Shown here piece by piece: positions 45,420-50,421 of a stretch of DNA of 64,000 bases; position 1 is the first letter of the stretch; each line of letters opens with the position of its first letter. The translations under genes and the position numbers were made by a program. This DNA comes from Thermoanaerobaculia bacterium (GTDB lineage: Bacteria; Acidobacteriota; Thermoanaerobaculia; Multivoradales; JAGPDF01): contig CAVQJN010000001.1 in NCBI GenBank assembly GCA_963712855.1, forward strand, positions 742,747 through 806,746. Reading direction: 5' to 3'. The notes under the pieces were generated by a model. That model saw only the letters and a list, made by a program, of their open reading frames with translations. It had not been told where the DNA came from and ran no database searches.

Positions 45420-47182
45420 CGTATCGCCTCGCTCTGTCCAAACGATCTCTCGATCTCAGCTTCTAACCTCTCATGACGCCGTGCCTCGCAGTCCTCACGA
45501 AGGATCGTGACGAGGCGGTAGCGGGCGCGCGACATTCCGACATAGGCGATCGAACGCCACCAGTCGTCGTCGATTTCATCGAGACCCGCCAAGATCACAA
45601 CGTCATTCTCAAGCCCCTTGAAGCTCGACACGGTCGACCAGGTACCCGCCACGCCCTTCCCCGACGAACGGCCCTGGTGCGTCCTGCCCTCGTATCGCCG
45701 GAGGCCCATCCCTTCGAGGAGAACCTCCTCGTTCGGCTTGGGAGTTCGGGGGAGGAGCACCGAGAGCCTCTCGCTCGTCAGCTCCTGGGGGCCCAATCTG
45801 GCGACGACCTCGCGGAGCACCTCGAATTGGCCCTTGCGGTCTCGATAGGTCACGAATTCGACCGGCGGACCTTCCGCGCGTGCCTCGCACCGCACCCGTG
45901 GATTCGCGACGACGTGCGTCTGAATGGCAATCGGCCGCGTGTTCCGGCAGTTGGCGGTCAAGAGGTGGGTCGGGGCCAGGCTCCGGATTCGCGTCAGCAA
46001 GTCTTCGTCCAGTCGGCCGTAGACACACGCCTGGTTGTTGATGTCCATGAACAGTCGCCAGCGGCCCGACTCGAGCCCACCGAAAACGAGGAACGACAGG
46101 ACCTCGAAAACGCTGGGACCGAGGACGTCCTGGGCTTCGTCGATGATCAAGACGTCATACGGCGCCAGGACCTCCTCCAGGCAAGCGAAACCCGCGTACT
46201 CCGGATAGAGAAGCTCGAAGACAAGCGCGGGATCCATCGAGCTCGATCGGCGCACGAACTCCTCCTCGAGCGACGAGCGCTCGATCAGGCGCCGGAACAG
46301 GGCGTGGACCGTCTGGACCTCGACGCTCCCGGAGAACCGCTCGCCGTCGACCAGACTCCGGAGTCGACCTGCCAGGAACCGATTGAAGCAAAGCAGCAAA
46401 GCGCGACGGCCTTGGCGCGCCTCGCGCCGAGCAGCTTCGGCAGCCAAAATCGTCTTGCCCGAGCCAGCGGCGCCCTCGACCAGCAATCGGGGCGCTTCGG
46501 CAGCGACCTCGAGGACTACGGCCTGTTCCCGAGTCAACGACGCGAGTCGTTCCAGCGTGTCCTCGACGACGATGTCCATCGACGGAACGAGGTCGAAATC
46601 GCCGCGGGCGAGTTCGACGGTCGCCTGTATCTCCCGCAGAGTGAGCCGCGCAGTTGTTCGTCCCGCCTTCCTCTCGGCGAACCGCGCTAGCCGTTCGAGG
46701 TACGCGCCAAACGGCGCGTGCCGGTCGCGTACGTCGAAGACGAGCTCGGAATCGCCCTCAGGCCCCATTGAAGCGAACTCAATGTCCGGCAGGACGACTC
46801 CGTAGGCGAAGAGCGGCCCCCGGGCGGACTCACCCGCGACCCGCTCGCGCAGGATGCGCTCGAGTGCGAACATCGCGCTCGCCGCCTGGTCAAACGGGCC
46901 CTCGGCGCGGCGATGCTCCTGGCCGTATCGGTCCGTAAAGATCCAGATGCCCGCCTCGCGCCGGATGCGCCCACCCTTGACCTCCAGAACGAAGACGCCG
47001 CGCGGCGCCACGATCAGGAAGTCGATCTCGGCTCGACGCTTGGTCGGATGGCGCGCCAACCCGAGCGAGTGGAGGCACACCCACTCCTCCGACCCAACGC
47101 TCGTTTCGATCGTTCGGAAGATCCTCCTCTCGGCGCCACTGCGGACGCGAGAGTGGATGGTCGCCGGAATCATCCGCGCCAT
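45416..47182 (-). CDS. NERD-domain / UvrD-like (SF1) helicase fusion protein
   Basis: N-terminal NERD (…EIDFLIVAPRGVFVLEVKGG…), Walker A GAAGSGKT, motif II VLIIDEAQD, and C-terminal UvrD_C-like …KGLENDVVIL…YVGMSRAR. Confidence 0.65.
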   Translation of the reverse strand: MARMIPATIHSRVRSGAERRIFRTIETSVGSEEWVCLHSLGLARHPTKRRAEIDFLIVAPRGVFVLEVKGGRIRREAGIWIFTDRYGQEHRRAEGPFDQAASAMFALERILRERVAGESARGPLFAYGVVLPDIEFASMGPEGDSELVFDVRDRHAPFGAYLERLARFAERKAGRTTARLTLREIQATVELARGDFDLVPSMDIVVEDTLERLASLTREQAVVLEVAAEAPRLLVEGAAGSGKTILAAEAARREARQGRRALLLCFNRFLAGRLRSLVDGERFSGSVEVQTVHALFRRLIERSSLEEEFVRRSSSMDPALVFELLYPEYAGFACLEEVLAPYDVLIIDEAQDVLGPSVFEVLSFLVFGGLESGRWRLFMDINNQACVYGRLDEDLLTRIRSLAPTHLLTANCRNTRPIAIQTHVVANPRVRCEARAEGPPVEFVTYRDRKGQFEVLREVVARLGPQELTSERLSVLLPRTPKPNEEVLLEGMGLRRYEGRTHQGRSSGKGVAGTWSTVSSFKGLENDVVILAGLDEIDDDWWRSIAYVGMSRARYRLVTILREDCEARRHERLEAEIERSFGQSEAIR

Positions 47183-50100: not shown

Positions 50101-50421
50101 TGCCGGTGACTCCCCGGTCAGTGTCCGGAGCCTTTGCAAGGCAAACCTCAGAGCGAAGCGGGCCCGTTCCGGCTCATCTGCGAGCTTCTCTCGCACGAGG
50201 TCGAGAGCTCCAAGCGCCAGGTGGACGACCATCTCCGAATGGTTTCCTAGGAGGTAGCGGCTCAAGAGAGCCAGCTCGTTGGGGTCCACCTGACCTTCGA
50301 TCTGACCCAGCGAGTCGCGTAAGAACTGAAGGGGGGGCCGGCCGGAACGCTCTTCGATCCTCTGTCCGCGGCGAACGAATCGCCCCTCAAGTCTCGCCAC
50401 GTCTTCGAACGTGATCGACAA
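47170..50421 (-). CDS. Large hypothetical protein (1083 aa), first gene of the DISARM-like operon
   Basis: Long ORF with coding-like composition and a 13-bp overlap with the downstream gene. No motif I can assign, so it is a possible DrmE analogue. Confidence 0.5.
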   Translation of the reverse strand: MSITFEDVARLEGRFVRRGQRIEERSGRPPLQFLRDSLGQIEGQVDPNELALLSRYLLGNHSEMVVHLALGALDLVREKLADEPERARFALRFALQRLRTLTGESPAWWLPELEAPEREEMETLLEVARGDQSFSEQELIHNARAFADQHERSGHHFRKLSAGLRLLVEVLENPGASPRHCEAARAALTYFSEVSDAIPDDLGPVGMLDDAAAIQHAVAEIHPERGVIGALLDDVVRDWPFVMDLSLGEESNPYPVSEFVLVSAALVLDSVLETGAKGSVLIQSRLGPLPFLIAVLRALSEVRRVLDLGSVPAFSRGERLVGPAGRGEVEFVGYVKCPDGSRIYEDAEECDPGEATHFELLQLGKKGNSIHRFHRIQDIRSLRRAKAINALKGGRVAFNLAKKPVGTLEKIFGLPSPAILRTERNRILFVGPAGETRHLASELKILGSPIVDLLPISRERLADGRFIRDTWTTRRGPGGAPILTVVQSTAEALEIAESDASVAAVVSPVGAGTRDAANLCRIASDGRRVLAITSEHDGEALQQFSRAGFGFWTWSDEWLGNLEWPQPRGSDGPAVVQNFEREFRRRSGSQTKSIALDLPGLEHAFEAAVELESLARREKVETLAETCSECIGALVRICRFLAPSGRSTWKQLQELWTELAAAVRQRQLWWRDEWKEQFDCIFASAHEAIESLQWNNPKFEAAMAWSFDHPGGLVAVPGQDRTFLNELATPPELQWLDRPHSDDPETPILVPAWYGRQRMERLLYPPIARSMTLLLYKSELGWLERSNARASRAAAEVRELTERQRPFRAVRRQALVDPKGAESASIILPDPDEIALRGRRIRAIQQLGLANDRTVEARLVYFAGGGWAAFTPEHRVLLLLSTEVDGDSGERLVPQRAAEVGAGDLVLLVRGSDRDAIRDAVDRVAPAGLRDQAAAWRDALERALRAGLSYQELQRQLAREGCKRTVATLRGWVEDETVIGPRDFDRDLEAILRVTCDRGLQTDLAACKRAIETLWRLHQKCGHELTQEVVARVRNRLRGGSVLDEVLEIEERVVLVVIESVDPEIVTVPLSMANRLHEDAWRG

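What the first reader, a model, noticed from the sequence alone, without database searches (positions are those of the whole stretch)
47170..50421. 1083-aa protein of unknown function heading the helicase operon
The ORF is long and compositionally coding, and it is translationally coupled to the NERD-UvrD helicase gene. I cannot recognise any catalytic motif in it (no Walker A, no PLD HxK, no nuclease signature). As the first gene of a DISARM-like operon it may be a DrmE analogue or a new specificity or sensor component.
Basis: inference. Interest (0 to 1): 0.55.

Follow-up and report, generated by a model that had tools for sequence, protein, structure and literature searches.

The report
Long DrmE protein of DISARM defence
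The 1083-residue protein is a long-form member of the DrmE family, the poorly understood essential subunit of class 2 DISARM anti-phage systems. Its predicted fold is that of a helicase that has lost its ATP-binding motifs, which gives a testable idea of what DrmE does.

Summary
The ORF is real: 47170..50421, minus strand, TTG start, 1083 aa. It overlaps the next gene by 13 nt.

It is a homologue of DrmE, not merely an analogue. It scores 89.2 bits against NCBIfam NF038316 (DrmE_fam, cutoff 80) and 41.3 bits against Pfam DrmE_C (cutoff 27).

An exhaustive profile search finds 1468 related clusters in two length classes:
- The canonical class is about 860-900 aa.
- A long class is about 1060-1130 aa. 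It adds an N-terminal helical domain of about 210-240 aa carrying an acidic DUF1232 motif. The window protein belongs to this class.

In 11 of 11 loci examined the gene sits directly upstream of drmA-drmB. A C5 DNA methyltransferase is nearby in 10 of 11. A NERD/SF1 helicase-nuclease lies between drmE and drmA in 7 of 11. A PLD-type DrmC is present in none.

Best reading: a non-catalytic helicase-like adaptor or sensor subunit of a DrmC-less class 2 DISARM variant. This is a variant of a known kind, of moderate interest.

The parts
47170..50421 (-). drmE, long form (1083 aa): first gene of the operon
   Evidence: ORF list. NCBIfam DrmE_fam 89.2 bits, cutoff 80, residues 748-1076. Pfam DrmE_C 41.3 bits. 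Full-length relatives.
49690..50421 (-). N-terminal all-helical extension (aa 1-244), specific to long-form DrmE
   Evidence: The AlphaFold model shows 12 helices at pLDDT about 90 or higher. Short-form DrmE proteins align only from aa ~208-240 onward. The domain is acidic, pI 5.0.
49780..49863 (-). DUF1232-type acidic motif (aa 187-214, ...SDAIPDDLGPVGMLDD...)
   Evidence: Pfam PF06803 matches 9 of 9 close relatives, best E 5.8e-7; the window protein itself scores 17.8 bits, below the cutoff of 23. The signature D-x-[ILVM]-x-D-x2-4-G-x2-G-x1-2-DD is present in 71 of 77 long forms and in 0 of 27 short forms.
48634..49164 (-). RecA-like alpha/beta domain (aa 420-596) without a P-loop. It is the best candidate for the helicase-like core, but this assignment is inferred from secondary structure because the fold searches returned no residue-level alignments.
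   Evidence: The secondary structure alternates seven beta strands with helices. Fold matches are to SF2 helicases. The Walker A position is not conserved, and the Walker B strand keeps only hhhD[GAS].
48292..48627 (-). Five-helix domain (aa 599-710) following the RecA-like domain, possibly Hel2i-like
   Evidence: Model secondary structure. The top 24 Foldseek PDB hits are all RIG-I/MDA5/LGP2/Dicer-type helicases, with 506-675 aligned columns. The Hel2i analogy is an inference.
47326..47856 (-). DrmE_C domain (aa 856-1032): small beta-barrel plus helical bundle, the most conserved part of the family
   Evidence: Pfam PF24957. Highest column conservation in the family alignment; W936 is invariant, and D904, D922, R930, T968, W972 and H1018 are each conserved in at least 92% of members.
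45416..47182 (-). NERD (PD-(D/E)xK) + UvrD-like SF1 helicase, 588 aa. Probable nuclease-helicase effector in the place of DrmC.
   Evidence: Pfam NERD 4.3e-12, AAA_19 and UvrD_C_2. PADLOC RTasNERD-Hel 3.8e-30. D54...E67-V-K69, Walker A GAAGSGKT and LIIDE are intact. Present between drmE and drmA in 7 of 11 loci.
42135..45419 (-). drmA, short type (SF2/YprA-like helicase, 1094 aa)
   Evidence: NCBIfam NF038325 DISARM_DrmAS 950.1 bits, cutoff 950. PADLOC DrmA 3.2e-210.
40363..42189 (-). drmB (DUF1998/MZB protein). The listed GTG start overlaps drmA by 55 nt, so the true start is probably downstream.
   Evidence: NCBIfam NF038324 434 bits, cutoff 240. Pfam MZB. PADLOC DrmB 6e-74.
38658..39917 (+). 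C5 cytosine DNA methyltransferase (role of DrmMII), convergent with the operon
   Evidence: Pfam DNA_methylase 5e-47. PADLOC DruM/MTase_II/DrmMII models. A C5 methyltransferase is near drmE in 10 of 11 loci.
39910..40338 (+). Vsr T:G mismatch endonuclease, overlapping the methyltransferase gene by 8 nt
   Evidence: Pfam Vsr 2.3e-18. PADLOC Vsr. Vsr homologues are found in 8 of 11 loci, and an HhH-GPD glycosylase in 2 others.
51399..51474 (-). tRNA-Ala(GGC) flanking the island. A start-less HTH_17 (excisionase-like) remnant at 51093..51299 (+) lies between it and drmE.
   Evidence: ARAGORN and Rfam. Pfam HTH_17 32 bits. GC3 of the DISARM genes is 0.68-0.81 against 0.85-0.87 in flanking genes.

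Best explanation
The gene encodes a long-form DrmE-family protein. It is the first subunit of a class 2-type DISARM anti-phage module with the order drmE, NERD/SF1 helicase-nuclease, drmA, drmB. The module is paired with a C5 DNA methyltransferase and Vsr, and lies on a horizontally acquired island next to tRNA-Ala.

Shown:
- Family membership.
- Strict synteny with drmA-drmB.
- A predicted SF2-helicase-like architecture in the body of the protein.
- No ATP-binding or hydrolysis motifs anywhere in the family.

Inferred:
- DrmE is a catalytically dead helicase-like adaptor or sensor.
- It binds nucleic acid and/or the DrmA-DrmB helicase through its conserved C-terminal domain.
- It is needed to direct or license DrmAB on unmethylated invading DNA. 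It may supply in trans functions that the long class 1 DrmA carries in its own N-terminal region.
- In this variant the NERD-UvrD helicase-nuclease, rather than the PLD nuclease DrmC, would cut the DNA.
- The long-form N-terminal helical domain with its acidic DUF1232 loop is an added regulatory or interaction module.
For: Family membership:
- NF038316 89.2 bits against a cutoff of 80, and PF24957 41.3 bits against 27.
- The profile search gives 1468 clusters, 365 of them at E<=1e-30.
- The 860-900 aa members match NF038316 end to end at 247-366 bits and align to the query from aa ~208-240.

Context:
- drmE is followed by drmA-drmB in 11 of 11 loci. A C5 methyltransferase is nearby in 10 of 11, the NERD helicase in 7 of 11, and a PLD gene in 0 of 11.
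- DrmE identity tracks DrmA and DrmB (Spearman 0.67 and 0.60) but not the methyltransferase (0.05). DrmE diverges about twice as fast: mean pairwise identity 25% against 47% and 46%.

Fold:
- The model has pLDDT 91.1 and pTM 0.90.
- Foldseek against the PDB gives RIG-I/MDA5/LGP2/Dicer helicases, E from 2e-4, probability about 1.0.
- The best viral-library hit is an SNF2-type ATPase, though not significant.

No catalytic motifs.

NERD helicase: its nuclease and ATPase motifs are intact.

Literature:
- drmE deletion abolishes class 2 DISARM defence (bioRxiv 10.1101/2021.12.28.474362, citing Ofir 2018).
- DrmC is dispensable and often absent, and the role of DrmE is stated to be unknown (PMC9142583).

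DrmA here is the short type: the DrmAS model matches in full, while the long-DrmA PADLOC model aligns only from its position 559 onward.
Against: - The fold evidence rests on a predicted model.
- TM-scores are low (0.17-0.30), so only domain-level similarity is supported. I could not obtain residue-level alignments to say which segment forms the second RecA-like lobe.
- There is no sequence-level similarity to DrmA, to the NERD helicase or to any PDB chain.
- No binding or interaction data exist. The adaptor or sensor role, the hand-off to the NERD nuclease and the 'in trans' idea are all inference.
- The window protein matches only the C-terminal 40% of the NF038316 profile directly.
- It is not recognised by the Bacillus-type DrmE equivalog NF038323 or by any PADLOC DrmE model.
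- Four of 11 loci have no NERD helicase and no nuclease gene other than Vsr in the Pfam listings, so the effector step is not universal.
Confidence: 0.6

Rival explanations
1. DrmE is a cryptic enzyme. An unrecognised active site would perform the DNA damage or another chemical step, which would explain why many DISARM operons need no DrmC. Candidate sites are the invariant acidic DUF1232 loop (D196, D200, D201, D209, D210) and the conserved C-terminal polar residues (K698, E779, D904, D915, D922, H1018).
For: Several charged residues are conserved in 84-96% of 106 diverse members. Four of 11 loci have no nuclease gene other than Vsr in the Pfam listings. The acidic motif is the best-conserved element of the N-terminal domain.
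Confidence: 0.15
2. DrmE is mainly a brake. It would be an inhibitory partner that keeps DrmAB (and the NERD helicase-nuclease) off self DNA and is released on infection, playing the role the autoinhibitory trigger loop plays in class 1 DrmA.
For: The DrmA here is the short type, without the long N-terminal region of class 1 DrmA. The trigger-loop mechanism is described in PMC9142583. DrmE is the fastest-evolving subunit, as expected for a component that phage proteins engage. Translational coupling fixes its stoichiometry with the next gene.
Against: In the one class 2 system tested, deleting drmE abolished protection rather than causing toxicity (as reported in bioRxiv 10.1101/2021.12.28.474362, citing Ofir 2018). 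There, it was loss of the methyltransferase that was deleterious.
Confidence: 0.15
3. The protein is a YkvA-like membrane protein, as JGI labels three relatives, or an unrelated gene that only happens to precede the helicase genes.
For: The JGI name for P0004, P0007 and P0159 is 'uncharacterized membrane protein YkvA (DUF1232 family)'. There is a weak PF06803 hit.
Against: There is no transmembrane-grade hydrophobic segment: the maximum 19-residue Kyte-Doolittle mean is 1.59, in segments containing charged residues. The model is a confident globular fold. The DUF1232 match covers 28 of 1083 residues. Synteny with drmA/drmB holds in 11 of 11 loci at 20-67% identity.
Confidence: 0.03

Closest known systems
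DrmE of class 2 DISARM (NCBIfam NF038316 'DrmE family protein'; Pfam PF24957 DrmE_C)
   Same: It passes both curated cutoffs. The body from aa ~240 to the end is homologous to canonical 860-900 aa members. It holds the same position, immediately upstream of drmA-drmB, with a C5 methyltransferase nearby. It has no recognisable catalytic motif.
   Different: It carries an extra N-terminal helical domain of about 210-240 aa with a DUF1232 motif. It is not recognised by the Bacillus-type equivalog NF038323 or by PADLOC DrmE models. Its operon has no PLD DrmC and has a NERD/SF1 helicase instead. Public records call its relatives 'hypothetical' or 'YkvA'.
DrmD (SNF2-type helicase of class 1 DISARM)
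   Different: No PADLOC model other than those listed matched; in particular there was no DrmD hit at E<0.1. DrmE lacks Walker A and B motifs. DrmD pairs with an N6-adenine methyltransferase, whereas here the methyltransferase is a C5 enzyme.
RIG-I-like receptors and the Dicer helicase module (SF2 with Hel2i insertion)
   Same: They are the top Foldseek PDB matches (E from 2e-4, 506-675 aligned columns). The order of elements is comparable: an alpha/beta domain, a helical domain, further alpha/beta elements, long helices and a C-terminal beta-rich domain.
YkvA / DUF1232 family (PF06803)
   Same: They share the short acidic signature D-x-IPD-x-x-G-x-x-G-x-x-DD.
   Different: YkvA proteins are small and annotated as membrane proteins. 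Here the motif lies in a soluble helical domain of a 1083-aa protein, and the window protein scores below the Pfam cutoff.
NERD-helicase defence proteins (PADLOC RTasNERD-Hel, 'C3a187 NERD+UvrD', Nhi-like nuclease-helicases). This entry concerns the neighbouring gene.
   Same: The neighbour has a NERD PD-(D/E)xK nuclease fused to an SF1 UvrD-like ATPase. It matches RTasNERD-Hel at 3.8e-30 and C3a187 at 6.9e-15.
   Different: Here it is embedded between drmE and drmA and translationally coupled to both. The Nhi model itself matches only at E 0.008.

Membership tests
DrmE family (NCBIfam NF038316, subfamily model) | Whole-protein score at or above the curated cutoff of 80 bits | tested here: met
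   89.2 bits, E 2.1e-25, residues 748-1076 against profile positions 499-837 of 838.
DrmE family (NCBIfam NF038316, subfamily model) | Homology over the whole DrmE body, not only the C-terminus | tested here: met
   A profile built from the query's relatives retrieves 860-900 aa proteins that match NF038316 end to end. These align to the query from aa ~208-240 to the end. The long-form member P0100 matches profile positions 11-811 from its residue 270.
DrmE family (NCBIfam NF038316, subfamily model) | Encoded next to drmA and drmB | tested here: met
   True in the window and in 10 of 10 other loci examined.
Pfam PF24957 DrmE_C | Score at or above the gathering cutoff of 27 bits | tested here: met
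   41.3 bits, residues 856-1032 against profile positions 3-179 of 181.
DISARM_DrmE equivalog (NCBIfam NF038323, Bacillus type) | Score at or above 250 bits | tested here: not met
   No hit at E<=0.1 for the window protein. Short-form relatives reach only 18-20 bits.
PADLOC DrmE models | A match to a DrmE HMM | tested here: not met
   There are 0 PADLOC hits for the window protein at E<=0.1. Two of the three short forms tested hit PDLC02636, at E 2e-8 and 3e-6 (P0138 had no hit); long forms do not hit at all.
Class 2 DISARM system (PADLOC definition in PMC9252829: DrmA, DrmB, DrmC, DrmE, DrmMII) | DrmA and DrmB present | tested here: met
   NF038325 950.1 bits against 950, and NF038324 434 bits against 240.
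Class 2 DISARM system (PADLOC definition in PMC9252829: DrmA, DrmB, DrmC, DrmE, DrmMII) | C5 cytosine methyltransferase (DrmMII) present | tested here: met
   PF00145 5e-47, and PADLOC DrmMII models down to 8e-41, although DruM and type II methyltransferase models score higher.
Class 2 DISARM system (PADLOC definition in PMC9252829: DrmA, DrmB, DrmC, DrmE, DrmMII) | PLD-domain nuclease DrmC present | tested here: not met
   No PLD gene is present in the operon or among the neighbours tested. None is listed in the 10 other loci.
Class 2 DISARM system (PADLOC definition in PMC9252829: DrmA, DrmB, DrmC, DrmE, DrmMII) | Protects against phage, and drmE is required | not testable with these tools
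   This needs a phage-challenge assay with a drmE deletion.
SF2 helicases | Tandem RecA-like fold | tested here: inconclusive
SF2 helicases | Walker A (motif I) and DExx (motif II) | tested here: not met
   Both are absent in the query. Only 2 of 106 family members have either, and the corresponding alignment columns are not conserved.
YkvA / DUF1232 (PF06803) | Score at or above the gathering cutoff of 23 bits | tested here: not met
   The window protein scores 17.8 bits. Relatives reach E 5.8e-7, and P0073 scores 25.9 bits. The motif is shared, but family membership is not claimed.
YkvA / DUF1232 (PF06803) | Membrane protein | tested here: not met
   No transmembrane-grade hydrophobic segment is present. 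The model is a confident soluble globular fold.

The most novel reading that the evidence does not exclude
DrmE would be a prokaryotic pattern-recognition subunit built on a dead RIG-I/Dicer-like helicase scaffold. It would read a structural feature of invading DNA (ends, single-stranded overhangs or lack of 5-methylcytosine) without hydrolysing ATP. It would then license the DrmAB motor and the NERD helicase-nuclease. The acidic DUF1232 loop of the long form would act as a metal- or partner-dependent switch. On this reading, class 1 (DrmD, an active SNF2) and class 2 (DrmE, a dead SF2) DISARM would share one architectural logic.
Probability: 0.15. Interest if true: 0.7.

Novelty: new variant of a known kind. 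Interest (0 to 1): 0.42.

Why it matters
DrmE is required for class 2 DISARM defence, yet the papers I could search still give it no assigned domain or mechanism, and no relative has a solved structure.

This analysis contributes three things:
- A helicase-like but ATPase-dead fold for the whole family. This turns 'unknown function' into specific experiments on DNA binding, DrmAB binding and absence of ATPase activity.
- A widespread long form with a DUF1232 domain.
- A recurrent DrmC-less architecture in which a NERD-UvrD nuclease-helicase sits between drmE and drmA.

The last point bears on the open question of which nuclease DISARM uses when DrmC is missing (raised in PMC9142583).

There is also a practical point. 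PADLOC v2 models do not recognise this DrmE clade, so such loci are likely to be under-called as DISARM.

Tried and rejected
Searches with the window protein or its family:
- PADLOC scan of the window protein: no hit.
- Sequence search of all PDB chains with the family profile: only noise, a primase at E 0.5.
- hhalign of the family profile against DrmA, both as a single sequence and as a 10-sequence profile, and against a 7-sequence NERD-helicase profile: no similarity. DrmE is therefore not a detectable duplicate of either neighbour.
- tblastn against plasmids: no match.

Collection scans and tools that gave little:
- The first, word-indexed homologue search found only 10 proteins and made the family look rare. 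The exhaustive search corrected this to 1468 clusters.
- A second word-indexed search with the 106-sequence alignment added only one fragment.
With the close alignment it returned one 4.3-kb contig.
- The AlphaFold-database fold library was not available.
- The viral fold library gave only non-significant helicase hits.
- The first structure model, from 9 sequences, was poor (pLDDT 67, pTM 0.38) and was replaced.
- Ofir et al. 2018 is not held in the library, so its statements are cited second-hand.

Locus features checked:
- Search for a repeat of the tRNA-Ala 3' end to delimit the island: none in the window.
- The promoter and terminator scan found no more than chance would give.

Ideas considered and rejected:
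- A membrane (YkvA) reading.
- A methylation-specificity link between DrmE and the methyltransferase. DrmE similarity does not track methyltransferase similarity (Spearman 0.05; only 9 loci, and they are not independent).
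Full report
**Observation**

- Close homologues begin at the same residue (alignment A1).
- GC3 is above overall GC (0.69 against 0.62).
- The stop codon lies inside the start of the next gene. This gives a 13-nt overlap with the ATG at 47182, or an ATGA overlap with the next in-frame ATG.
- The stated absence of Walker A, DExx, PLD HxK and PD-(D/E)xK patterns holds for the protein and for the family.

**The operon**

On the minus strand the gene order is as follows.
- The 1083-aa gene comes first.
- A 588-aa NERD + UvrD-like SF1 helicase follows. It has an intact nuclease triad (D54, E67, K69), Walker A (GAAGSGKT) and LIIDE.
- Next is DrmA of the short type: NF038325 950.1 bits against a cutoff of 950, and PADLOC DrmA 3e-210.
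- Last is DrmB: NF038324 434 bits.

A C5 cytosine methyltransferase (38658..39917) and a Vsr mismatch endonuclease (39910..40338) lie convergent with the end of the operon.

Upstream there are about 970 nt without a convincing gene. This stretch holds a start-less HTH_17 excisionase-like remnant. Beyond it lie tRNA-Ala(GGC) and then hflX. The DISARM genes have lower GC3 (0.68-0.81) than the flanking genes (0.85-0.87). This is a horizontally acquired defence island at a tRNA gene.

**Identity of the protein**

- Pfam gives DrmE_C at 41.3 bits (cutoff 27) for residues 856-1032, plus a sub-threshold DUF1232 hit at residues 187-214.
- NCBIfam gives NF038316 'DrmE family protein' at 89.2 bits (cutoff 80) over residues 748-1076.
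- The Bacillus-type equivalog NF038323 and all PADLOC DrmE models fail to match.

The word-indexed homologue search found only ten relatives. The exhaustive profile search found 1468 clusters at E<=1e-3 and 365 at E<=1e-30. They fall into two length classes.
- Proteins of 840-900 aa match NF038316 end to end at 247-366 bits. They align to the window protein from about residue 208-240 onward.
- Proteins of about 1060-1130 aa match the window protein over its full length.

The window protein is therefore the DrmE-family body plus an N-terminal extension of about 210-240 aa. That extension is all-helical and acidic. Its hallmark is the signature D-x-[ILVM]-x-D-x2-4-G-x2-G-x1-2-DD, present in 71 of 77 long forms and in none of 27 short forms. 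Pfam recognises it as DUF1232 in 9 of 9 close relatives.

The JGI label 'membrane protein YkvA' for some relatives is not supported. There is no transmembrane-grade segment, and the model is a confident globular fold.

**Context elsewhere**

I examined ten further loci spanning 20-67% identity, covering both length classes. Counting the window, this gives 11 loci.
- The gene is followed by drmA and drmB in all 11.
- A C5 methyltransferase is within a few genes in 10 of 11.
- Vsr is present in 8, and an HhH-GPD glycosylase in 2 (both short-form loci).
- A NERD/SF1 helicase sits between drmE and drmA in 7 of 11 (5 of 9 long-form, 2 of 2 short-form).
- No PLD-domain gene is recorded in any.
- Several loci lie among integrase, resolvase, replicase or relaxase genes.

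Across nine loci, DrmE similarity tracks DrmA and DrmB similarity (Spearman 0.67 and 0.60; DrmA against DrmB is 0.72) but not methyltransferase similarity (0.05). DrmE is the fastest-diverging member: mean pairwise identity 25% against 47% and 46%. The sample is small and the loci are related, so this is indicative only. It suggests that drmE-drmA-drmB is inherited as one module while the methyltransferase is exchanged.

**Fold**

With nine sequences the AlphaFold model was poor (pLDDT 67). With the 106-sequence family alignment it was confident (pLDDT 91.1, pTM 0.90). Along the chain it shows:
- helices (residues 1-244);
- an alpha/beta region with beta-hairpins (245-415);
- a seven-strand alternating alpha/beta domain (420-596);
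- a five-helix domain (599-710);
- further alpha/beta elements and long helices (718-850);
- a small five-strand barrel (854-910);
- a helical bundle (913-1038);
- a terminal hairpin.

The fold searches gave three results.
- By Foldseek against the PDB, the top 24 hits are all RIG-I, MDA5, LGP2, Dicer-2 or DRH-1 helicase modules. E-values start at 2e-4, probabilities are 0.94-1.0, and 506-675 columns align. TM-scores are low (0.17-0.30), as expected if the domains are arranged differently.
- The best hit in the viral structure library is an SNF2-type ATPase, though it is not significant.

Against this fold, the family has no P-loop. The loop after the first strand of the 420-596 domain is unconserved. 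The strand corresponding to Walker B keeps only a hydrophobic run plus Asp in many members. Conserved positions are mostly Trp, Gly, Pro and Leu. The polar ones cluster in the C-terminal domain: D904, D915, R918, D922, R930, T968 and H1018, with W936 invariant.

No solved structure of any relative exists in the PDB copy searched.

**Mechanism**

Shown:
- The protein is a DrmE-family member.
- It is an obligate genomic partner of DrmA-DrmB.
- It has a predicted SF2-helicase-like body.
- It has no ATPase or nuclease motifs.

From the literature:
- Deleting drmE abolishes class 2 DISARM defence (bioRxiv 10.1101/2021.12.28.474362, citing Ofir 2018).
- DrmC is dispensable and often missing.
- DrmAB is a helicase complex activated by single-stranded 5' overhangs and restrained by a trigger loop in the long class 1 DrmA.
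- The role of DrmE is left open (PMC9142583).

Inferred:
- DrmE is a dead-helicase adaptor or sensor. It would bind DNA and/or DrmAB through its conserved C-terminal region and would be needed to direct the short-type DrmA-DrmB motor to unmethylated foreign DNA.
- In this variant the coupled NERD-UvrD helicase-nuclease would be the cutting enzyme in place of DrmC.
- The DUF1232 domain would be an added regulatory or interaction module of the long form.

I put about 0.9 on family and system membership, and about 0.55-0.6 on the non-catalytic adaptor or sensor role. I put less on the specific hand-off to the NERD nuclease. That gene could instead be an independently acting system embedded in DISARM, a pattern described in bioRxiv 10.1101/2024.01.29.577857.

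The rivals are a cryptic enzyme (0.15), an autoimmunity brake (0.15), and an unrelated or membrane protein (0.03).

**Comparison with what is known**

By the curated NCBIfam and Pfam thresholds the protein is a DrmE-family member, so an up-to-date annotation pipeline would probably name it. In the public sources, though, its relatives are 'hypothetical protein' or 'YkvA', and PADLOC v2 does not see them.

The system fails PADLOC's class 2 definition only because it lacks DrmC.

In the searchable literature I found no description of the long DUF1232 form, of the drmE / NERD-helicase / drmA / drmB architecture, or of a helicase-like fold for DrmE. The library is incomplete, and the original DISARM paper could not be read.

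**Verdict**

This is a correct and useful first-stage call. The gene is the DrmE subunit of a DrmC-less class 2-type DISARM system, in a long variant form. It is a new variant of a known kind, of moderate interest. Its main value is the testable pseudo-helicase hypothesis for a subunit whose function is still unknown.

Noticed in passing
window 51093..51299 (+), next to tRNA-Ala 51399..51474 (-): An HTH_17 (excisionase/AlpA-like) reading frame without a usable start codon lies between the tRNA and drmE (Pfam 32 bits). It is probably the remnant of the mobile element that delivered the island. No repeat of the tRNA 3' end is present in the window.
   Followed up: partly
window 38658..50421 compared with 51540..61003: GC3 of the DISARM, methyltransferase and Vsr genes is 0.68-0.81, against 0.85-0.87 in the flanking hflX, histidine kinase and sigma-54 activator genes. 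This is consistent with horizontal acquisition.
   Followed up: partly
window 31229..35605 and 34905..38381 (+): Two very large ORFs (1458 and 1158 aa) with PKD, CARDB and DUF676 esterase-like domains overlap by about 700 nt. This could be a frameshifted giant surface-protein gene or a mis-assigned start. The region has low GC (0.56-0.60).
   Followed up: no
window 21226..22155 (-): An ORF with an IS200-like Y1 transposase domain (Pfam 28 bits) lies near a low-GC stretch at 18-20 kb, which holds a 635-aa ORF with no family match.
   Followed up: no
window 8024..8123 (-): A selenocysteine tRNA gene is present (ARAGORN and Rfam, 74 bits), so the organism uses selenoproteins.
   Followed up: no
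window 40363..42189 (-): The drmB ORF as listed starts at a GTG 55 nt inside drmA. The NCBIfam match begins at residue 22, and homologous loci show short overlaps, so the real start is probably further downstream.
   Followed up: no
window 42135..45419 (-): DrmA passes the NCBIfam DISARM_DrmAS equivalog cutoff by only 0.1 bit (950.1 against 950). This clade lies at the edge of what that model recognises.
   Followed up: no
L012 7995..10026 and L013 7736..9998: In the two short-form DrmE loci the C5 methyltransferase is paired with an HhH-GPD glycosylase instead of Vsr. This is a different solution to the T:G mismatches produced by 5-methylcytosine deamination.
   Followed up: partly
L002, L010, L011 and the JGI contig carrying P0007: Four long-form loci have drmE directly followed by drmA-drmB, with no NERD helicase and no nuclease gene other than Vsr in the Pfam listings. 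The NERD helicase is therefore accessory, and the minimal module appears to be drmE-drmA-drmB plus a methyltransferase.
   Followed up: partly
nine loci: window, L001, L002, L004, L005, L007, L010, L012, L013: DrmE is the fastest-diverging protein of the module in every locus. Its mean pairwise identity is 25%, against 47% for DrmA and 46% for DrmB. Its similarity does not track that of the methyltransferase.
   Followed up: yes
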